The position numbers and the translations under genes were made by a program. This document shows, one piece after another, positions 4,460 to 31,996 of a stretch of 64,000 nucleotides of DNA. The stretch is from Aulosira sp. ZfuVER01. Its GTDB lineage: Bacteria > Cyanobacteriota > Cyanobacteriia > Cyanobacteriales > Nostocaceae. Location: the NCBI GenBank assembly GCA_034530615.2, contig JAVRCV020000034.1, positions 64,001-128,000 of the forward strand, given 5' to 3'. How positions within the stretch are numbered: position 1 is the stretch's first letter; each line of letters starts with the position of its first letter. A model generated the notes under the pieces. The model was given only the letters and a program-made list of their open reading frames with translations, was not told the origin of the DNA and searched no databases.

Positions 4460-6103
4460 ATGGCAGTCAGCAGCACGGTGGCTCCCCCAACCCCGTGGTC
4501 TAGAACCTTAGCTGAGCCAACAATCCATGAAACCACATTTGTACATCCGTTTTCCAAGGTGATTGGAGACGTGCGCATAGGTGCAAATGTCATCGTTGCT
4601 CCGGGAACTTCGATTAGAGCAGATGAAGGTACACCTTTTTTTATTGGTGAAAACACTAATATTCAAGATGGTGTAGTGATTCATGGGTTGGAGCAAGGTC
4701 GAGTAATTGGTGACGACCAAGACCAATACTCGGTATGGATTGGTAAAAATGCTTCCATTACCCACATGGCCTTAATTCACGGGCCGGCTTATGTTGGGGA
4801 TAATTCGTTCATTGGCTTTCGCTCTACGGTATTTAATGCCAGGGTGGGTGCAGGCTGTATTGTGATGATGCACGCTTTGATTCAAGATGTAGAAATTCCC
4901 CCTGGTAAATATGTACCTTCGGGAGCGATCATTACTAATCAACAGCAAGCCGACCGCCTACCAGATGTACAAGCGCAGGATCAAGAATTTACCCATCATG
5001 TAGTGGGAATTAATCAGGCACTGCGAGCAGGTTATCTCTGTGTTGCTGATAGTAAATGTATTACACCCATCCGGGATGAATTAAAAAAATCTTCTACAAG
5101 TAATGGCATTACTGTTTTAGAGCTAGAAAGGAGTAGTGAAGTGGCGAGTAAGAGCTTGGGTGCGGAAACAATAGAGCAGGTGCGCTATTTGTTAGAGCAG
5201 GGATATAAAATTGGTACGGAACACGTAGACGAGCGACGTTTCCGCACCGGTTCTTGGACTAGTTGCAAACCATTAGATGCCAGATCTATTGGGGAAGCGA
5301 TCGCAGCTTTAGAAAGTTGTGTAAGAGACCACAGCGGCGAGTATGTGCGGCTGTTTGGCATCGACAAAAATAGACGGCGGGTGTTGGAAACCATCATCCA
5401 ACGTCCTGATGGTACAGTGGGCGCACCTAGCAACTTTAGAGCGCCTGCTGCTCAATCTAATGGCAGCTACAAAGCTAATACTAACGGTAACGGCTCTGGT
5501 AGTGGGCAACTCAGTGCTGACACTGTAGACCAAATCCGCCAGCTATTGGCAGGTGGTTACAAAATCGGTACAGAACACGTAGACGAGCGCCGCTTCCGCA
5601 CGGGTTCTTGGCAAAGTTGTGAGCCAATTAACTCTACTTCTACCAATGACGTAATTGCCGCTTTGGAAGATTGTATCAACAATCATCAAGGCGAATACGT
5701 GCGCTTGATTGGGATTGATACCAAAGCCAAACGTCGGGTATTGGAAAGCATTATTCAACGTCCTAATGGCCAAGTTAGTTCATCTGGTAGCCAGAAGTCA
5801 TTTACTAGTGCTTCAACAGCCACAGCAACCGCAACTAACACCCGCTTGAGTGGCGAAGTCGTAGAACAGTTACGGCAATTACTCGGTGGTGGGTATAAGA
5901 TTAGCGTTGAACACGTAGACCAAAGAAGATTCCGTACAGGTTCCTGGACAAGTAGCGGCCCCATTCAAGCCAATTCAGAAAGAGAAGCGATCGCAGCCTT
6001 AGAAGCACATCTTGCTGAATATCAAGGCGAATATGTGCGCTTAATCGGGATTGACCCCAAAGCCAAGCGTCGGGTATTGGAAACCATTATTCAACGCCCA
6101 TAG
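4460..6103 (+). CDS. ccmM: Carboxysome protein CcmM (gamma-CA domain + 3 RbcS-like repeats)
   Basis: Hexapeptide gamma-CA N-terminus; three repeats of [12 protein letters not shown]...EYVRL.GID...RRVLE.IIQRP. Confidence 0.97.
5128..5143 (+). promoter_or_regulatory. Internal RBS + GTG start for the short CcmM isoform
   Basis: AAGGAG at 5128-5133 and an in-frame GTG at 5141, just before the first RbcS-like repeat. Confidence 0.75.
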
Positions 6104-6114
6104 CAGTACGAGTG

Positions 6115-6253
6115 ACAAGTGCTGAGGAGCCAGTGCTGTTGGATTGGTAAAATAATTTTCCGAATTGAATCAACTAGCTTTGCTGAGTTGAGTAGGTTGT
6201 GGATACCAGCCAGACTATAACTACGACTCAGCACTAACAACTCAGCACTCAGA
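6115..6253. repeat. STRR-like heptamers (GCTGAGT / ACTCAGC) with an embedded degenerate dispersed repeat
   Basis: gtgctgaggagccagtgc...tgctgagttgagt...actcagcactaacaactcagcactcag. Confidence 0.55.
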
Positions 6254-6290
6254 ACTTTCTAATTTTCTGGCTTCCGAGGTGACAATTTCC

Positions 6291-7070
6291 ATGTCTGTGC
6301 CGCCACTGCGCCTCAGCAATAATTTTGATTCTTATATTAGTGGCGAGGTGACTATTCATCCGAGTGCGGTACTAGCGCCAGGAGTGATACTCCAAGCGGC
6401 TGTAAAGGGCAAGATCGTTATCGGTCCGGGGGTTTGTATTGGTATGGGGTCGATTCTCCAAGTCCATGAAGGAACTCTAGAAGTAGAAGCAGGGGCAAAC
6501 TTGGGAGCCGGTTTTCTCATGGTTGGTCAAGGTAAAATCGGAACAAATGCTTGTATTGGTTCAGCAACAACAGTATTTAACTGTTCGGTTGCAGCGGGAC
6601 AAGTAGTTCCACCTGGTTCAATTTTGGGAGACACCAGTCGCCGTATTGGTACTACAGAACCGGAACCATCAACAATTAATGCTTCTACAGCAACGCAGGC
6701 GGCGAAGGCAGGAAAAAATTTGATCGGCAGAAAAAGAGACAATGGGGTAAATAGAGATCGGGACACAACTATTTCCTCAACTAACTTATCTGCTGGAGTT
6801 TTTGTAGAATTACAGCACACATCTATTTCCCAACCTCAGCCTGCTACTAATCCGGTAGATGAATCTCTTCCCATTGCAGAAAACCCTACTGTGCCCGCAG
6901 AAGCCGCACCAGAACTTAGCCAAGACTCAGAATCTAGTCAAAATCCCACCGAATCACCTAGTATTGGGACTCACATTTATGGTACAGGGAGCATCCAAAG
7001 GCTGTTAGTCACATTGTTCCCCCATCGGCAATCCTTAAATGAACCAATCTCTGACGATCAGTCTGAATAA
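6291..7070 (+). CDS. ccmN: Carboxysome protein CcmN
   Basis: Hexapeptide-repeat N-terminus, low-complexity linker, C-terminal encapsulation peptide (IYGTGSIQRLLVTLFPHRQ). ATG 6291 preferred over GTG 6279. Confidence 0.93.
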   Translation: MSVPPLRLSNNFDSYISGEVTIHPSAVLAPGVILQAAVKGKIVIGPGVCIGMGSILQVHEGTLEVEAGANLGAGFLMVGQGKIGTNACIGSATTVFNCSVAAGQVVPPGSILGDTSRRIGTTEPEPSTINASTATQAAKAGKNLIGRKRDNGVNRDRDTTISSTNLSAGVFVELQHTSISQPQPATNPVDESLPIAENPTVPAEAAPELSQDSESSQNPTESPSIGTHIYGTGSIQRLLVTLFPHRQSLNEPISDDQSE

Positions 7071-7117
7071 GTGTTAATTGTAAGTTGTTAGTTTCGTGAG
7101 TATCTTGGAGACTCTAC

Positions 7118-7900
7118 ATGGAAACATCAAATCAACGGGCTATTAGCACTGTTCAGTCCTCCCGACGTCGAGATAGCCTTAAGGACACTGCTTTAGGTTT
7201 AGTATCTACTCTGAGCTTCCCGGCGATCGTGGGGACGGCTGATATGATGCTGAAATCGGCAGGAGTTCATTTAGTTGGCTATGAAAAAATAGGTGGTGGT
7301 CATTGTACAGCAATTGTGCGGGGTGGGATCGCGGATGTGCGTCTAGCTGTAGAAGCTGGCGTGCAAACGGCTGAACAGTTTGGTCAATTGGTTTCTAGCT
7401 TGGTAATTCCCCGTCCTTATCCCAATTTAGAGGTAGTTCTACCTATCACTAATCGCCTGAGCAAAATCATGGAAGAGGGAAATTACAGCCGTTTGAGCAA
7501 TCAAGCAGTTGGTTTGGTGGAAACGCGGGGATTTCCAGCGATGGTAGGAGCCTGTGATGCCATGCTCAAATCAGCTGATGTGCATTTGGCAGCCTATGAA
7601 AAAATTGGTGCGGGTTTGTGTACAGCGATTATTCGCGGCTCGGTGGCTAATGTTGCCGTAGCAGTAGAAGCGGGGATGTATGAGGCAGAACGCATTGGAG
7701 AGTTGAACGCAGTAATGGTGATTCCTCGACCGTTGGATGAATTAGAGCAGACTTTGCCATTAGCTAGTTGTTGGATAGAACAACGTCAACCATTGAATTT
7801 GCCAGTAAATATTAAGGAGCAAGTTGCCGAAATCGAGATGCTTCAGTTACCTGATTTAACTCAGTTACCCGTCAAAATTTTAGAAGAATTAGAAGAATGA
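7118..7900 (+). CDS. ccmO: Tandem-BMC shell protein CcmO
   Basis: Two BMC domains; position after ccmN. Confidence 0.94.
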   Translation: METSNQRAISTVQSSRRRDSLKDTALGLVSTLSFPAIVGTADMMLKSAGVHLVGYEKIGGGHCTAIVRGGIADVRLAVEAGVQTAEQFGQLVSSLVIPRPYPNLEVVLPITNRLSKIMEEGNYSRLSNQAVGLVETRGFPAMVGACDAMLKSADVHLAAYEKIGAGLCTAIIRGSVANVAVAVEAGMYEAERIGELNAVMVIPRPLDELEQTLPLASCWIEQRQPLNLPVNIKEQVAEIEMLQLPDLTQLPVKILEELEE

Positions 7901-8066
7901 TGAATGGTGAATGACGAATTAGGAATGATGGATTGTAGGCGATCCGCATTCAGGATTCAGTATTCAGCATTCATCTAGAGCTGGAAGGCATCTTACGCTG
8001 TGCTTTGTTGTTTTGATAATAACTGTTCAAGTCTATAAGTAAAAGACCTTTTTTGTAATAGGGTTA

Positions 8067-8107
8067 ATAGATTTTTATCTATACATATTAATCATAACTT
8101 TTGTATG
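8067..8107. promoter_or_regulatory. Putative LysR (CbbR-type) autoregulatory boxes
   Basis: ATAG-N8-CTAT at 8067-8082 and CATA-N7-TATG at 8093-8107, upstream of the LysR gene. Confidence 0.5.
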
Positions 8108-8183
8108 AGCAGTGCTATCTCTAATGCAAGTGTTCAGTGATACTAGATTTATAGCTATGAATCACTACTAGAGGAGAATCACC

Positions 8184-9125
8184 TTGAACCAAGCGACGCT
8201 ACACCAGTTGAAGGTGTTCGAGGCGGCAGCAAGGCATGGGAGCTTTACTCGTGCAGCTGAGGAATTGTTTCTCACCCAACCTACCGTTTCCATGCAGATT
8301 AAGCAATTAACAAAATCGGTCGGGTTGCCTTTATTTGAGCAGGTGGGTAAGCGCTTATATTTGACGGAGGCGGGACGCGAACTATTTGCTACTTGTCGCC
8401 AAATTTTTGACACAATAGCCCAATTTGAAATGAAAGTAGCAGATTTAAAAGGGCTAAAACAAGGTCAATTAAAATTGGCAGTAATTACAACAGCAAAATA
8501 TTTTGTACCGCGCTTTTTGGGTGCATTTTGCCAGCTTTATCCCGGAATAGATATATCGCTGCAAGTCACAAACCACGAACGAATTTTAGAGAGAATGGTG
8601 AATAATCTGGACGACTTGTATATTATGAGCCAAGTTCCAGAAAATCTTGATGTGACTTGTCAGCCATTTTTAGATAACCCTTTGGTTGTCTTTGCTCCTT
8701 ATAATCATCCACTAGCGAAGGAGAAAAATATCCCTCTCCCACGCCTTGCTCAAGAACCTTTTATCATGCGAGAACCAGGTTCAGGAACACGCCGTGCTGT
8801 CCAAAGTCTGTTCGATGAACATGAAATGAAAGTGAACGTAAAGCTGGAATTGGGAAGTAATGAGGCAATTAAACAAGCGATCGCCGGGGGTTTAGGAATT
8901 TCGATTTTATCTCGTCATACCTTAATGCCAGAATCGTCTGAGTTAACTATTTTGGATGTACAGCACTTTCCGATTCAGCGCACTTGGTACATGGTTTATC
9001 CTTCTGGTAAACAGCTATCAATTGTTGCGCGTACTTATCATGATTACCTCTTAAATACGGCAAAGAGTTTCATTGAGCAAAATACTTCTTTTGCCTGGGG
9101 TACATTTGAGCAAAGTCAAACATGA
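8184..9125 (+). CDS. cmpR: CbbR-type LysR transcriptional regulator (CmpR-like)
   Basis: HTH TLHQLKVFEAAARHGSFTRAAEELFLTQPTVS and REPGSGTR motif; follows ccmO; TTG start with GAGGAG RBS. The specific paralog name is inferred from synteny. Confidence 0.75.
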   Translation: MNQATLHQLKVFEAAARHGSFTRAAEELFLTQPTVSMQIKQLTKSVGLPLFEQVGKRLYLTEAGRELFATCRQIFDTIAQFEMKVADLKGLKQGQLKLAVITTAKYFVPRFLGAFCQLYPGIDISLQVTNHERILERMVNNLDDLYIMSQVPENLDVTCQPFLDNPLVVFAPYNHPLAKEKNIPLPRLAQEPFIMREPGSGTRRAVQSLFDEHEMKVNVKLELGSNEAIKQAIAGGLGISILSRHTLMPESSELTILDVQHFPIQRTWYMVYPSGKQLSIVARTYHDYLLNTAKSFIEQNTSFAWGTFEQSQT

Positions 9126-11039: not shown

Positions 11040-11139
11040 AGATAGATTGAATCTAAAATAACTAAATGCCTAGCCTCTGCGCCTATAAACTCTTTTAAAG
11101 CCTATAATTAGAGCAATCATATACACCAGACGCTCCTGC

Positions 11140-11718
11140 ATGAACAGCGATCATCCAATTAAAATCCTGTTTTTAGCATCCGATCCCAGCGATGAATCTC
11201 GGCTACGCTTAGGGCAAGAGTTACGTGAAATTCGTGAGCGGCTGCAACTATCAAAAAACCGAGATAGATTTGTACTAGAGTCTCGTGAATCTGTACGTCC
11301 AGGAGATATCACTCAAGCAATCTTTGATGTTGAGCCACAGATTGTACATTTCTCTGGACATGGAAAAAGCACAGGCGAGATTTACTTTGAAAATTTATTA
11401 GGGAAAGCCCAGCCTGTAACACTCGATGCCTTAGCAGCGCTATTTAAAGAAGTAGCTGACCAAATCAATTGTGTAATATTGAATGCTTGTTATTCAGAAG
11501 CCCAAGCGAAAGCAATTGCAGAACACATCGAATTTGTAATTGGGATGAATCAAGCAATTGGAGATAACGCAGCTATAGCATTTACTGTTGGTTTTTACAA
11601 AGCATTAGGAGCAAATCGTTCCATTGATAAAGCTTACAAGTTTGGTTGTGTGGAAATTAATATACAAGGTATTTCAGAGCATTTAACTCCTGTTCTTTAC
11701 GAAAAAAAAAACAGCTAA
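11140..11718 (+). CDS. Stand-alone CHAT (caspase-like) domain protein
   Basis: ILFLASDP..LRLGQE.REI, IVHFSGHG (His) and VILNACYS (Cys); ends EKKNS* across an A10 run. Confidence 0.88.
   Translation: MNSDHPIKILFLASDPSDESRLRLGQELREIRERLQLSKNRDRFVLESRESVRPGDITQAIFDVEPQIVHFSGHGKSTGEIYFENLLGKAQPVTLDALAALFKEVADQINCVILNACYSEAQAKAIAEHIEFVIGMNQAIGDNAAIAFTVGFYKALGANRSIDKAYKFGCVEINIQGISEHLTPVLYEKKNS
11701..11712 (+). other. Slippery homopolymer G-A10-C linking the CHAT ORF to the downstream ORF (-1 frame)
   Basis: GAAAAAAAAAAC. The -1 frame reads KKKQLKNNLEPAKYILVLSATID... with no stop up to 13280. Confidence 0.6.
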
Positions 11719-11747
11719 AGAATAACCTAGAACCAGCTAAATATATA

Positions 11748-13280
11748 TTGGTATTAAGCGCCACTATTGATGAAGTTAACAAGCCACTAGCAGAAGCTAT
11801 TGTTGCCCATTTGCGTCAAATATCTGGAGATGCATCATTGACACTACAGAGAATTGAGGTTGGTAGTGTAAAACTAGTCTTAGAAGGTTCTCAAGAGGGA
11901 TTGGAGCGAATTTTGGCTCTACTTAGAGAAGGAAAGCTGACTGAGATATCAGGAATTTCTGTCCAGGATGTGCAAGTTGTCGCTTCGTCTAAACAGGAAA
12001 GCAATAGTCCACCACTTAGAAGAGTAACTATAAACTCACAACCAGAAGAAATTGTTGTTGAATCTATTAATGATGCTGCTTCTAGGAGACAGGGAATCGC
12101 TACCCTAAGACAGGGTTTTGAGGAACGGAATCTGCCTATGCTAACAGAAGCAGAAAAACTGGCGCAATATTGGCGAACTCGTCTATTAGCGGAGTGTCCA
12201 GAACAAAGCGCAGCAGATCAAGAAAGTATCATTCTCTGGTTATTGGGACGTGATTCCCAACGGTTGGATCTGCTCAACCCCAAGGAACTTGAGATTGCCA
12301 AGCAAGCAATGGAATATCGCTATCGAATTTTACTGCAACGTTACCTGGGAGTAGCACGAGAACGTGCTTATCGCAACCTAATCACGCGGCTGGCCAGTTT
12401 GATGACATTGCGCAATAAAATTCAGACTTGGGTTTCCCTCAGCCGTGATCGCCAGCGGAGTGTAATAGATGTATTACAAGAAATCATCCAGGAATTACTG
12501 CAAAGCGATAGCTACATCCAAGATCAAATGGCTTGTATCGCTGAAATTACCACCGACAGGCGGCTGCGAGATACGCTACTGTTTGCCAGTATCGAAGAAT
12601 ATTGTTTGCGCCCAGTACGCAATCAGCCGTTGCTGGTTTACCGCTTTGTCAACTACCTGCGCCGTACTCAACGGGGTGGGTTAACTCAAGTGCCTGGTAG
12701 CGACTTGATTAGGCTAGTTTCCGAAGAAATTCTCACCGATGACAGCGACAATCGAGTTAACTTGGTTGATAGTCAGGCGATCGCAGAATATCAAGAAGCG
12801 CAGGAACTAGAAGAACAACAAGTATTGCGTCAAGCTGTACAACAAGAATTTGAAGAATATTTACAAGAAAACCTCGGCACAGAAGCCGTAGAGTGGCTAC
12901 GCCTGTATCTGCAAGGTAAGTCCCAAGACGAAATCGCCAAGAAACTAAATAAACAAATTAAAGAAGTATACCGACTGCGGGAAAAAATTAGCTACCATGC
13001 AGTGCGTGTGTTTGCTCTCAAAGGGAAACCGGAACTAGTGGAAAACTGGCTGGCAATTTCTTTGCAAGAACACAACTTGGGGTTAACACAAAACCAATGG
13101 CAGCAACTCTATGAACAATTGACTCCACTTGGGCAGCAGATTTTAGATTTACGCAAAGCTGGCAACTCAATCGAAGCAATAGCTCAACAGTTAAATATCA
13201 AAACCTATCAAGTGATGGGTGAATGGACAAAAGTCTATCTTGTCGCCCAAGCTTTAAGAACTCAAGATCAAGCTAAGTGA
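11748..13280 (+). CDS. HetZ-related regulator (sigma-like/HTH) carrying an extra N-terminal alpha/beta domain
   Basis: Core resembles cyanobacterial HetZ-related proteins (SIILWLLG, MEYRYRILLQRYLG, EEYCLRP, REKISYHA). Likely native ATG at 12138; the TTG at 11748 lacks an RBS. Confidence 0.75.
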   Translation: MVLSATIDEVNKPLAEAIVAHLRQISGDASLTLQRIEVGSVKLVLEGSQEGLERILALLREGKLTEISGISVQDVQVVASSKQESNSPPLRRVTINSQPEEIVVESINDAASRRQGIATLRQGFEERNLPMLTEAEKLAQYWRTRLLAECPEQSAADQESIILWLLGRDSQRLDLLNPKELEIAKQAMEYRYRILLQRYLGVARERAYRNLITRLASLMTLRNKIQTWVSLSRDRQRSVIDVLQEIIQELLQSDSYIQDQMACIAEITTDRRLRDTLLFASIEEYCLRPVRNQPLLVYRFVNYLRRTQRGGLTQVPGSDLIRLVSEEILTDDSDNRVNLVDSQAIAEYQEAQELEEQQVLRQAVQQEFEEYLQENLGTEAVEWLRLYLQGKSQDEIAKKLNKQIKEVYRLREKISYHAVRVFALKGKPELVENWLAISLQEHNLGLTQNQWQQLYEQLTPLGQQILDLRKAGNSIEAIAQQLNIKTYQVMGEWTKVYLVAQALRTQDQAK

Positions 13281-13381
13281 TAGTTGTATTTCGCCCGCTA
13301 AAAGCTTGGTTCTAGGTTAAGACGGTAATGACATTGGTGAAATAGCAGGTTCTATTATCCGGTTTAGGAGAGCGATAGTAG

Positions 13382-14362
13382 CTAACGTAAAACTAAGTCA
13401 GTAATTAATGGTGCATGGTCAGAATTAGCATTTGCGCCTGTATAGATTTGAGCTACACTAAAATGCTTACTGACGAAACAATGGTCAATAGGAATATTCA
13501 TCAACGGGATGATCCAGCTTGGTAGAGTTACGTGAGTTGCTGGTCGTGGCCAGCTTGGTAAAATACCAAAACCTAAGCGAGTATTGTGCAAATTTGTTTT
13601 ATTGATAAATCGTCGGTAATAAGGCGACCAAGGTGTTAAGTTAAAATCTCCCATTAAAACTACTGGCTGATTCAGTTCTCGAATATAATCACTCAACGCT
13701 GCTAGCTGAAGATTACGTCTATGAAAATTATTGCGAGTTATAGGTACTATGGGATGAGTTCCAATTAACTTAATAGGCTGTTTATCGACTGTTAAGGTTG
13801 CTATAAGGTTATGACCGCCTTTGCCATTGAAATTATCTGCCTTTACATCTTGAATGGGTAAGCGACTAAATATTGCCAGTCCACCACCAGGACTTCTAAA
13901 AGAATAAGGCAGAGTATTTTTTAAACCAGCGTTTAAATTGTCGAAGCCACTGCGATTAATTTCCAAAAATAAAGCTACATCAGGGCGATTATCCTGCACT
14001 ACATTAATAACTTCTTTGTCATCATTATTTTGAATATTAATGTTAAAAGATAAAAGCCGAATTTGTTTAGTTGGATTACCAGCTAACTGTTGCGAATGAG
14101 GTAGATACCAAGGAAGCACCTCAATTACATTCAAACCCACAAGTAATAAAGCTGCAAGAACTATGATTTTACTCTTGAGATGGAGGGTTTTCCAAAGAAT
14201 ACTTAAAATCAGAGTAGCTATTAACGATAAAACTAAATAGTGAACTCGAAAATGAGCGAGTAGTTCTAGCGGCCAGAACCAAGCCATGTAGCTACCGAAA
14301 GATAGCAATCCTAAAATCAAAATGGTAGCGGTTGCGACAATTAAAAGTATTCGTTGGTTCAT
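13382..14362 (-). CDS. Endonuclease/exonuclease/phosphatase family membrane protein
   Basis: N-terminal TM helices; LLSFN, MGDFNLTPWS, IDH and SDH motifs. Confidence 0.88.
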   Translation of the reverse strand: MNQRILLIVATATILILGLLSFGSYMAWFWPLELLAHFRVHYLVLSLIATLILSILWKTLHLKSKIIVLAALLLVGLNVIEVLPWYLPHSQQLAGNPTKQIRLLSFNINIQNNDDKEVINVVQDNRPDVALFLEINRSGFDNLNAGLKNTLPYSFRSPGGGLAIFSRLPIQDVKADNFNGKGGHNLIATLTVDKQPIKLIGTHPIVPITRNNFHRRNLQLAALSDYIRELNQPVVLMGDFNLTPWSPYYRRFINKTNLHNTRLGFGILPSWPRPATHVTLPSWIIPLMNIPIDHCFVSKHFSVAQIYTGANANSDHAPLITDLVLR

Positions 14363-31862: not shown

Positions 31863-31996
31863 TTGACAAACATTTGTAGAAAATACTTTGCTGTTTTATT
31901 ACACAGGAGACTAAAAATTAAAAAAAAAGTATTTATATGCAGTTTGAAGTTAATTACCTGTATGTTTGTTGTGTTTAACAATGCACAAACAAATTT

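What the first reader, a model, noticed from the sequence alone, without database searches (positions are those of the whole stretch)
11140..13280. Candidate slippage-controlled fusion: CHAT protease + adaptor-like domain + HetZ-related regulator
Seen: the CHAT ORF has an intact His/Cys dyad (HFSGHG, LNAC) and ends GAA AAA AAA AAC AGC TAA. The -1 frame across this A10 run reads KKKQLKNNLEPAKYILVLSATID... and stays open to 13280. One extra A, or a -1 ribosomal shift, gives a single 713-aa protein. The nominal TTG start at 11748 has no RBS, while an internal ATG at 12138 with an upstream GAGGA could make the plain HetZ-like protein. Established: CHAT domains are caspase-like proteases (HetF is one); HetZ regulates heterocyst differentiation; runs of nine or more A promote RNA polymerase slippage. 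Inference: the locus may yield three products (free protease, protease-tethered regulator, free regulator). That would place a developmental-type regulator under stochastic or proteolytic control. No strong stimulatory hairpin follows the run, which favours transcriptional slippage or phase variation over ribosomal frameshifting.
Basis: partly seen in the sequence, partly recalled or inferred. Interest (0 to 1): 0.85.

Follow-up and report, generated by a model that had tools for sequence, protein, structure and literature searches.

The report
Slippery A-run joins protease to sigma
A run of ten A's splits a cyanobacterial gene into a small protease and a sigma-factor-like part; relatives keep the same out-of-frame run, so the cell probably makes the joined protein only when transcription slips, a known trick that appears new for this protease family.

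Summary
The A10 run (11702-11711) is real: contigs of three public runs carry it unchanged, and the 8.03-Mb genome has only four A/T runs of 10 or more. It sits at the end of a complete CHAT protease, followed out of frame by TRADD-N and a HetZ-related-2 sigma-like domain. Of 27 CHAT-TRADD-N junctions, 8 are out of frame, all with A9-A12 (six A10); 18 of 19 in-frame ones have A8 or less. A second architecture, CHAT-STAND ATPase, repeats this: 15 of 42 out of frame, 12 with A9 needing one extra base, and out-of-frame sister pairs keep the ATPase under purifying selection (dN/dS 0.12-0.33). TRADD-N has no conserved start; the internal ATG is missing in 4 of 7 out-of-frame relatives. Best reading: slippage-dependent, low-dose fusion, probably transcriptional (0.55); rivals are ribosomal sliding, phase variation and hotspot inactivation. 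No RNA or protein data. The sigma part is copied from each host's own gene. Known mechanism; I found no paper on it in CHAT genes.

The parts
11140..11718 (+). Short CHAT (caspase-like) protease ORF, 192 aa; the product when no slip occurs
   Evidence: PF12770 33.4 bits over cut-off 24; 8TL0 SAVED-CHAT E 5e-12; PADLOC chat E 4e-18
11359..11361 (+). His74 codon, catalytic dyad
   Evidence: aligns with the 8TL0 His in HFxGHG; motif kept in all 7 out-of-frame HetZ2 loci
11488..11490 (+). Cys117 codon, catalytic dyad
   Evidence: aligns with the 8TL0 Cys in LNAC; kept in all 7 out-of-frame HetZ2 loci
11702..11711 (+). A10 slippery run at the CHAT domain boundary; needs one extra base (or a -1 ribosomal shift) to reach the downstream frame
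   Evidence: A10 in 6 of 8 out-of-frame CHAT-TRADD-N junctions
11716..11718 (+). Stop codon of the unshifted CHAT frame
11739..11975 (+). TRADD-like N adaptor domain in the shifted frame, without a conserved start codon
   Evidence: PF20694 E 3e-13; alignment A1; starts and dN/dS 0.05-0.24
11976..12105 (+). Variable linker between TRADD-N and the sigma-like part
   Evidence: poorly conserved in the four-locus DNA alignment
12106..13280 (+). HetZ-related protein 2 region (ECF sigma-like), copied from the host's free-standing gene on contig C52
   Evidence: NF037965 625 bits; 96% DNA identity to G000:C52 over 12106-13267; tree; 358 of 377 aa identical
12138..12140 (+).
   Evidence: present in 3 of 7 out-of-frame loci
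13083..13274 (+). Sigma region-4-like helix-turn-helix
   Evidence: model residues 316-379 match SigmaE region 4, Z 10.5, rmsd 1.8 over 64 residues
9420..11039 (+). Context: MuiA-family (DUF4139) gene, upstream landmark of a variable site
   Evidence: TIGR02231; other genes stand at this site in relatives
13382..14362 (-). Context: endonuclease/exonuclease/phosphatase gene, downstream landmark
   Evidence: PF03372

Best explanation
One accessory gene, ancestrally an in-frame CHAT-TRADD-N-sigma fusion, is held out of frame by a selected A10 run at the protease domain boundary. Most transcripts copy ten A's and give a free 192-aa CHAT protease; a minority gain one A by RNA polymerase slippage and give the 713-aa protease-adaptor-sigma protein. 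The run works as a dose limiter on a conflict-type signalling fusion, and lineages move between a constitutive fusion (short or interrupted run) and the slippage-dependent state. Shown: the anatomy, the tie between run length and frame, purifying selection downstream. Inferred: that slippage happens, that the polymerase rather than the ribosome does it, and what the fusion does (most likely TRADD-N-driven clustering activates CHAT, which frees or switches the sigma domain).
For: Run and frame are tied: 8 of 8 out-of-frame CHAT-TRADD-N junctions have A9-A12, 18 of 19 in-frame ones A8 or less (Fisher 4e-6, overstated by kinship). Same in CHAT-STAND: 15 of 42 out of frame, all with A8-A9; 26 of 27 in-frame with A7 or less. 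The out-of-frame state is mostly two bases longer than the plain in-frame run (A8 to A10; A7 to A9): 18 of 25 out-of-frame junctions need one extra base, the commonest transcription error at A runs (PMC5574713, passages), whereas one-step mutation should give the other class. No junction needing one extra base has fewer than nine A's. No junction was found that is put in frame by an uninterrupted A11 (TRADD-N) or A10 (STAND). Sister pairs that are both out of frame keep the startless ATPase under purifying selection: 10 of 459 nonsynonymous against 21 of 141 synonymous sites (L246/L248), dN/dS 0.12-0.16 (L185/L212/L213), 0.33 (L172/L190). All 7 out-of-frame HetZ2 loci keep the dyad and a downstream frame open for 507-521 codons. 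The direction is not fixed (G006, G152 need -1 or +2), which PMC3711429 takes as favouring transcriptional realignment (passages). A conserved run length among homologues is the criterion of PMC1088944, which also lists Nostoc IS elements using A8-A10 (passages). No hairpin after the run.
Against: No transcript, ribosome or peptide evidence. The gene is patchy (12 of 389 family genomes) and often broken otherwise: 3 of 9 in-frame HetZ2 loci have a split CHAT, G014 carries an insertion sequence, G124 has both a run and a CHAT frameshift. Pairwise dN/dS of TRADD-N cannot date the frameshift: the pseudogene G243 also gives about 0.09 against G291. The HetZ2 part is renewed from the host copy, so its open frame is weak evidence. 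G000 and G006 share a recently exchanged segment (98-99% against about 90% in the flanks) and are not independent; G006 also has Gly to Glu in the AIGD motif. Counter-examples: L219 is out of frame with A6, L249 has A9 and a stop 49 codons on, L086 and L188 are in frame with A9 after a local duplication. Out-of-frame states are scattered over both trees, as a mutational hotspot would also give. E. coli polymerase slips less on A than on T runs (PMC6260861, abstract).
Confidence: 0.55

Rival explanations
1. The fusion is made, but by the ribosome: a -1 shift or sliding on A_AAA_AAA / A_AAA_AAN just before the stop codon.
For: 18 of 25 out-of-frame junctions need exactly this direction; both architectures have the same codon layout, and many STAND loci read A_AAA_AAG, the dnaX heptamer (PMC3711429). 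The two mechanisms are interchangeable in dnaX, and fs-chlD uses AT-rich sites (PMC9227772). Ribosome sliding on lysine A-stretches is published (PMC4363877, search listing only).
Against: No downstream structure in 4 of 4 loci folded and no Shine-Dalgarno-like sequence just upstream (read). A one-base contraction would keep a slippery heptamer in the right frame, yet none of the 18 junctions needing -1 has fewer than nine A's. Seven junctions need the other direction.
Confidence: 0.13
2. Phase variation: the run changes length during replication, so a subpopulation of cells carries an in-frame allele and the sequenced strains are in the OFF phase.
For: Run lengths differ between close relatives (A7/A8/A9 in STAND loci, A8/A10/A12 in TRADD-N loci) and states alternate across the trees; poly-A slips in replication too.
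Against: None of the 27 TRADD-N or 42 STAND junctions shows the expected long ON allele (A11, A10); in-frame alleles are short or interrupted. No length variant among the contigs of four runs, weak because contigs drop rare variants.
Confidence: 0.14
3. Repeated inactivation at a mutational hotspot: lysine codons at the domain end expand and knock out a dispensable or costly fusion; any read-through is incidental.
For: Patchy gene, often broken elsewhere; independent origins on both trees; L249 and L162 look decayed after an A9; G006 carries a second indel and a motif change.
Against: The two-step length dominates over the one-step length (6 A10 and 0 A9 at HetZ2 loci; 12 A9 against 2 A8 at plain STAND loci) though each added A is about ten times rarer in this genome; out-of-frame sister pairs show purifying selection downstream; 7 of 7 out-of-frame HetZ2 loci have no stop or further frameshift in either ORF.
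Confidence: 0.14
4. Two separately translated genes: CHAT, and a downstream protein from a TTG or the ATG at 12138.
For: ATG with GAGGA upstream in this genome; the ESM Atlas holds the 380-aa sequence from that ATG, which shows only a gene call.
Against: First possible start is codon 12-15 in five loci but 34 and 42 in two, all TTG and inside the conserved domain; the ATG is absent in 4 of 7 loci; 6 out-of-frame STAND loci have no start before codon 55; this reading does not explain the run.
Confidence: 0.04

Closest known systems
Programmed transcriptional realignment on A9/A10: Thermus dnaX, two-ORF dnaX of Chlorobi, Shigella spa13, IS elements including Nostoc IS (PMC1088944, PMC3711429, PMC5009743; passages)
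   Same: A9-A10 run of conserved length at a domain boundary, two overlapping ORFs, short and long product, no RNA stimulator, direction not fixed.
   Different: Host gene is a CHAT protease module with exchangeable C-terminal partners; in-frame alleles with short or interrupted runs coexist and alternate on the tree; not tested at the bench.
fs-chlD chelatase genes (PMC9227772, passages)
   Same: AT-rich slip site gives an N-terminal enzyme alone and a longer fusion; -1 more common than +1.
   Different: fs-chlD sites usually have a downstream stimulatory structure and are read as ribosomal; none found here.
'Pseudo pseudogenes' and S. aureus mapW (PMC1088944, passages)
   Same: A frameshift that lengthens an A8 run leaves the gene leaky; uninterrupted ORFs occur in other strains.
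   Different: Here the lengthened state recurs in many genera, mostly two bases longer, with selection downstream.
Bacterial TRADD-N conflict proteins (PMC8195603 section 9; PMC7159879 passages)
   Same: TRADD-N lies between a variable N-terminal effector (caspase is listed) and a variable C-terminal domain (HTH, PAS, STAND are listed); cyanobacteria; links to ECF sigma factors.
   Different: Neither main text holds the word frameshift, and PMC8195603 does not hold HetZ; here a whole HetZ-family sigma-like domain is the C-terminal partner.
Sigma-HetZ and HetZ' of Anabaena 7120 with HetF and PatU3 (PMC13342950 passages and sections 7, 9; PMC9457339 listing)
   Same: Same protein superfamily; ECF sigma region-4 fold; a CHAT protease acts in the same kind of pathway.
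   Different: This is subfamily HetZ-related 2, far below the HetZ cut-off; the CHAT is not HetF (27 bits against 1200); protease and sigma are in one gene; no role in heterocysts shown.
SAVED-CHAT and TPR-CHAT protease-sigma cascades of type III CRISPR (10.1101/2023.06.23.546230, passages)
   Same: Homologous CHAT with the same dyad; activation by oligomerisation; sigma factors downstream.
   Different: No SAVED or TPR domain in these ORFs and no cas or cyclase gene among the neighbours examined; no recoding in the passages read.

Membership tests
Programmed transcriptional realignment gene | Homopolymer of about nine or more A/T at the frame transition | tested here: met
   A10 at 11702-11711
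Programmed transcriptional realignment gene | Run and frame transition conserved among diverged homologues, length conserved | tested here: met
   A10 in 6 of 7 out-of-frame HetZ2 loci in 6 genera; A9 in 13 of 15 STAND loci; in-frame alleles also exist
Programmed transcriptional realignment gene | Downstream frame under purifying selection after the frameshift arose | tested here: inconclusive
   Met for STAND sister pairs; for TRADD-N dN/dS is low but cannot be dated
Programmed transcriptional realignment gene | mRNA population with added or missing A's from a uniform DNA template | not testable with these tools
   only DNA contigs could be laid
Programmed -1 ribosomal frameshift (dnaX / IS3 type) | X_XXY_YYZ heptamer in the zero frame | tested here: met
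   A_AAA_AAA and A_AAA_AAC
Programmed -1 ribosomal frameshift (dnaX / IS3 type) | Downstream stem-loop or upstream Shine-Dalgarno stimulator | tested here: not met
   fold z +0.13 to +0.76 in 4 of 4 loci; no SD-like motif just upstream
Phase-variable simple-repeat gene | ON and OFF tract lengths both found in strains or populations | tested here: inconclusive
   no long ON allele among 27 + 42 junctions, but one genome per species, and contigs hide rare variants
CHAT / caspase-HetF peptidase | Profile match and His-Cys dyad | tested here: met
CHAT / caspase-HetF peptidase | Proteolytic activity and substrate | not testable with these tools
   needs a biochemical assay
HetF | NF045509 above cut-off, about 836 aa | tested here: not met
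   27 bits against 1200; 192 aa
HetZ (heterocyst sigma factor) | NF037963 above cut-off | tested here: not met
   79.7 bits against 550
HetZ-related protein 2 | NF037965 above cut-off, full length | tested here: met
   625 bits against 400, profile 2-367 of 367; Atlas clusters 0.99
ECF sigma factor | Region 4 fold | tested here: met
   Z 10.5, rmsd 1.8 over 64 residues to SigmaE region 4; ranks 1-13 are all sigma-factor entries; Z under 13 for helical parts is only moderate
ECF sigma factor | Region 2 fold, binding to RNA polymerase, promoter recognition | tested here: inconclusive
   TIGR02937 32.5 bits, below cut-off 42.9; Foldseek best E 0.028; function rests on kinship with HetZ
Bacterial TRADD-N conflict protein | TRADD-N between variable N- and C-terminal domains | tested here: met
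   PF20694; C-terminal partners in relatives include LuxR-type HTH, histidine kinase-receiver and HetZ2
Bacterial TRADD-N conflict protein | Role in defence or cell death | not testable with these tools
   predicted only in the papers; no full PADLOC system matched by the four proteins scanned

The most novel reading that the evidence does not exclude
The short cyanobacterial CHAT module carries a portable recoding switch at its C-terminal boundary that sets the ratio of free protease to protease-effector fusion whatever the partner (TRADD-N-sigma, TRADD-N-kinase, STAND ATPase). Both products act: the abundant free protease pairs with or cuts the rare fusion and releases a sigma domain that gene conversion keeps matched to the host's own HetZ2 and polymerase, so transcription errors gate a protease-to-sigma immune or developmental signal, and lineages tune it by one- or two-base changes.
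Probability: 0.25. Interest if true: 0.82.

Novelty: new variant of a known kind. Interest (0 to 1): 0.64.

Why it matters
Non-mobile chromosomal genes that depend on polymerase slippage are few, and my searches listed none for CHAT or caspase-like proteases. Here the same slip site recurs behind one protease module with at least three different partners, and natural in-frame, out-of-frame and interrupted alleles give a ready allelic series for asking how bacteria dose risky conflict proteins. Such loci are annotated as two genes or pseudogenes, so the fusions are missed. The gene also tethers a caspase-like protease to a relative of the newly described heterocyst sigma factor, whose HetZ2 subfamily has no function in the papers I read.

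Tried and rejected
Assembly error: rejected. RNA evidence: no RNA holder listed, which says nothing on expression. Stimulatory hairpin: none. Promoter and terminator scan: 4 and 2 sites against 5.6 and 2.0 expected, uninformative. Single-sequence fold of the downstream ORF: pLDDT 42, not used. Sequence search of PDB with the HetZ2 part: no match; Foldseek: none at E 0.001, mostly sigma factors among weak rows. Plasmid search: 15 records with partial CHAT matches, none with the junction. TRADD-N loci across the order: 1 of 29 examined had a CHAT upstream, in frame. Six CHAT paralogues in the own genome: none with an out-of-frame partner. Pairwise dN/dS of TRADD-N as proof of recoding: rejected because the pseudogene control scores alike. 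Branch-wise dN/dS was not obtained, so the age of the frameshift at the HetZ2 loci stays open. The open HetZ2 frame as proof of selection: weakened by gene conversion. The internal ATG as a conserved third product: rejected. Earlier scan notes: nothing for this sequence or place. Supplements of PMC3711429: 2 files searched for CHAT, Nostoc, Anabaena and caspase with no hit; file 1 could not be searched and may list such a cluster. The source data of PMC8195603 Figure 3 and the appendix of PMC13342950 were not read and may show this architecture or place HetZ2.
Full report
Observation. The window holds a 192-aa ORF at 11140-11718 that ends in a run of exactly ten A's (11702-11711) two codons before its stop, and a second frame, one base back, that is open from 11661 to 13280. 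One extra A joins them into 713 residues (arithmetic). Runs this long are rare in this 8.03-Mb genome: 522 of length 8, 56 of 9, 3 of 10, 1 of 12; 3 A10 in 5.95 Mb of long ORFs. Contigs of runs X1-X3 cross the run without a difference at depth 130-816; X4, a related strain of another study, has no indel in the run but lacks one base at 11717. X1-X3 are one study, X1 may be the source, and contigs hide rare variants; still, an assembly slip is unlikely.

The parts. ORF1 is a CHAT domain; its His74 and Cys117 align with the spacing of the SAVED-CHAT dyad, and paralogues that stop at the same place (for example contig C82) show that the run lies at the natural domain end. The second frame encodes TRADD-like N and HetZ-related protein 2 (625 bits, cut-off 400), not HetZ (80 against 550). 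HetZ was shown to be an ECF sigma factor (PMC13342950, passages and sections 7 and 9); a model of the domain (pLDDT 78) matches sigma region 4 (Z 10.5, rmsd 1.8, 64 residues), while region 2 was not confirmed. The gene lies at a variable site between a MuiA-family gene and an EEP gene, where relatives carry other genes. CHAT-TRADD-N-HetZ2 was found in 12 of 389 family genomes and four further records.

The sigma part is borrowed. The genome has a free copy on contig C52 (358 of 377 residues identical) and a third copy fused behind TPRs on C61. In a tree of 37 copies the fused copy groups with the same genome's free copy in G025, G291, G318, G125 and G000 (support 100/100 each); G006's fused copy groups with G000's, and G151's two copies are unresolved. 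I read this as repeated gene conversion (inference). The free gene has two Met codons upstream that the fused copy lacks; the ATG at 12138 and its GAGGA are inherited coding sequence and the ATG survives in 3 of 7 out-of-frame loci.

Run length and frame. I collected CHAT-TRADD-N junctions from 389 family genomes, 401 order genomes, and scans of genome and metagenome contigs; repeated records were counted once, and three TRADD-N records without CHAT (L095-L097) were left out. Of 27 junctions 8 are out of frame, with runs of 10 (six), 12 and 9; 19 are in frame, 18 with runs of 8 or less or interrupted, and one (L086) with an A9 after a local duplication (Fisher 4e-6; kin are not independent). 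The out-of-frame loci come from 7 genera; the titled out-of-frame records name Nostoc, Scytonema, Iningainema and Calothrix. Six need one extra base; two (G006, G152) need one fewer or two more. TRADD-N is conserved from before any possible start codon; the first start is a TTG at codon 12-15 in five HetZ2 loci and at 34 and 42 in two.

A second architecture. I gave 135 further loci (115 CHAT matches, mostly the better-scoring ones listed, and 20 TRADD-N matches); 123 had a CHAT, 51 with a partner not classified. Of 42 CHAT-STAND ATPase junctions (for the domain) 15 are out of frame: 12 with A9 needing one extra base, two with A8 and one with A9 needing the other shift; 26 of 27 in-frame ones have A7 or less. 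Of 22 with a coiled-coil partner 1 is out of frame (A8). Of 8 more TRADD-N junctions (one already counted) 1 is out of frame with only A6 (L219), a counter-example. In a tree of 38 of the 42 STAND loci (4 dropped as short or with an early stop) the out-of-frame state is scattered, but sister loci that are all out of frame keep the ATPase under purifying selection: dN/dS 0.13 for L246/L248 (10 of 459 against 21 of 141 sites, p 9e-8), 0.12-0.16 for L185/L212/L213, 0.33 for L172/L190. Six of these ATPase frames have no start codon before codon 55. This is the strongest sign that a product is made across the run; it assumes the sisters inherited the run and did not gain it separately.

Mechanism. 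In both architectures the dominant out-of-frame state is two bases longer than the plain in-frame run, so that a single inserted base restores the frame: 18 of 25 out-of-frame junctions. One-step mutation should favour the other class, and each added A is about ten times rarer in this genome. Single-base insertions dominate transcription errors at A runs (PMC5574713, passages); nine is the usual threshold, conserved length is the criterion for use, and Nostoc IS elements use A8-A10 (PMC1088944, passages); a shift direction that is not fixed argues for transcription (PMC3711429, passages). No junction needing one extra base has under nine A's, although a shorter heptamer would serve a -1 ribosomal shift, and no hairpin follows in 4 of 4 loci folded. 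I therefore put transcriptional slippage first (0.55), then phase variation (0.14; no long ON allele among 69 junctions), hotspot inactivation (0.14), ribosomal shifting or sliding (0.13) and separate genes (0.04). What the fusion does is inference from the families: TRADD-N is an adaptor between variable effectors in predicted conflict systems (PMC8195603 section 9), CHAT domains are switched on by oligomerisation and act upstream of sigma factors (10.1101/2023.06.23.546230, passages), so clustering through TRADD-N that activates CHAT and frees or switches the sigma domain is the likeliest scheme, with the run limiting its dose.

Against. There is no RNA or protein evidence. The gene is often broken in other ways (3 of 9 in-frame HetZ2 loci have a split CHAT; G014 has an insertion sequence; G124 has both). 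TRADD-N dN/dS of 0.05-0.24 among out-of-frame loci does not date the shift, since the pseudogene G243 scores about 0.09 against its sister. G000 and G006 share a recently exchanged segment, and G006 has a motif change. L249 and L162 look decayed behind an A9. E. coli polymerase slips less on A than on T (PMC6260861, abstract), and cyanobacterial rates are not known to me.

Comparison and novelty. It works like Thermus dnaX, spa13, IS elements and fs-chlD and meets the sequence criteria of a realignment gene, with the transcript test open. It is not HetF and not HetZ. Five full-text searches listed no paper on slippage in CHAT or caspase-like genes; the two TRADD-N papers do not hold the word frameshift; PMC3711429 does not hold CHAT in its main text or two supplements, one file unseen. 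The library lacks most subscription papers. Verdict: a real, conserved, probably functional slip site in a family where I could not find it described, on an unusual protease-adaptor-sigma fusion: a new variant of a known kind, interest 0.64.

Noticed in passing
window 12106-13267; L039 (G000:C52), L105-L119: The fused HetZ2 domain tracks each host's own free hetZ2 gene in five genomes, pointing to repeated gene conversion; in G000 residues 45-329 differ from the free copy at no position.
   Followed up: yes
L040:809-3418 (G000:C61): A third HetZ2-like domain is fused behind a TPR-containing N-terminal part (870 codons), so this sigma-like domain has been captured by more than one kind of fusion.
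   Followed up: partly
L086:2720-2765: In this in-frame-junction locus the CHAT is instead shifted at a T9 run just before the catalytic LNAC motif; a second slip site or an assembly error.
   Followed up: no
L032:3531-4561: An insertion sequence (HTH plus DDE_3 transposase in two overlapping ORFs with an A9 at the overlap; IS630-like from recall) interrupts the CHAT gene at the same MuiA site in G014.
   Followed up: partly
window 11150-11900 against L002: G000 and G006 are 98-99% identical over CHAT, the run and the start of TRADD-N but about 90% in the flanks: a recent exchange between species.
   Followed up: partly
G000:C12:49558: A T9 run joins a 177-codon frame to a 169-codon frame in another phase, the only other transition of this kind flagged in the genome scan.
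   Followed up: no
window 11040-13380; L033-L037, L044, L045: The site between the MuiA-family gene and the EEP gene is a hotspot: relatives carry other small genes there, or a CHAT with another tail (L068).
   Followed up: partly
L277-L280: CHAT-STAND genes are followed by a second, larger gene with a C-terminal ATPase domain; three of the four loci share neighbours (ABC permease, PhoD-like phosphatase).
   Followed up: partly
window 4460-9125: Carboxysome genes (CcmM-, CcmN-, CcmO-like) and a LysR-type regulator lie upstream; names from recall of the translations, not from a call.
   Followed up: no
window 31920-31928: A second long run (A9) in the window; not examined.
   Followed up: no
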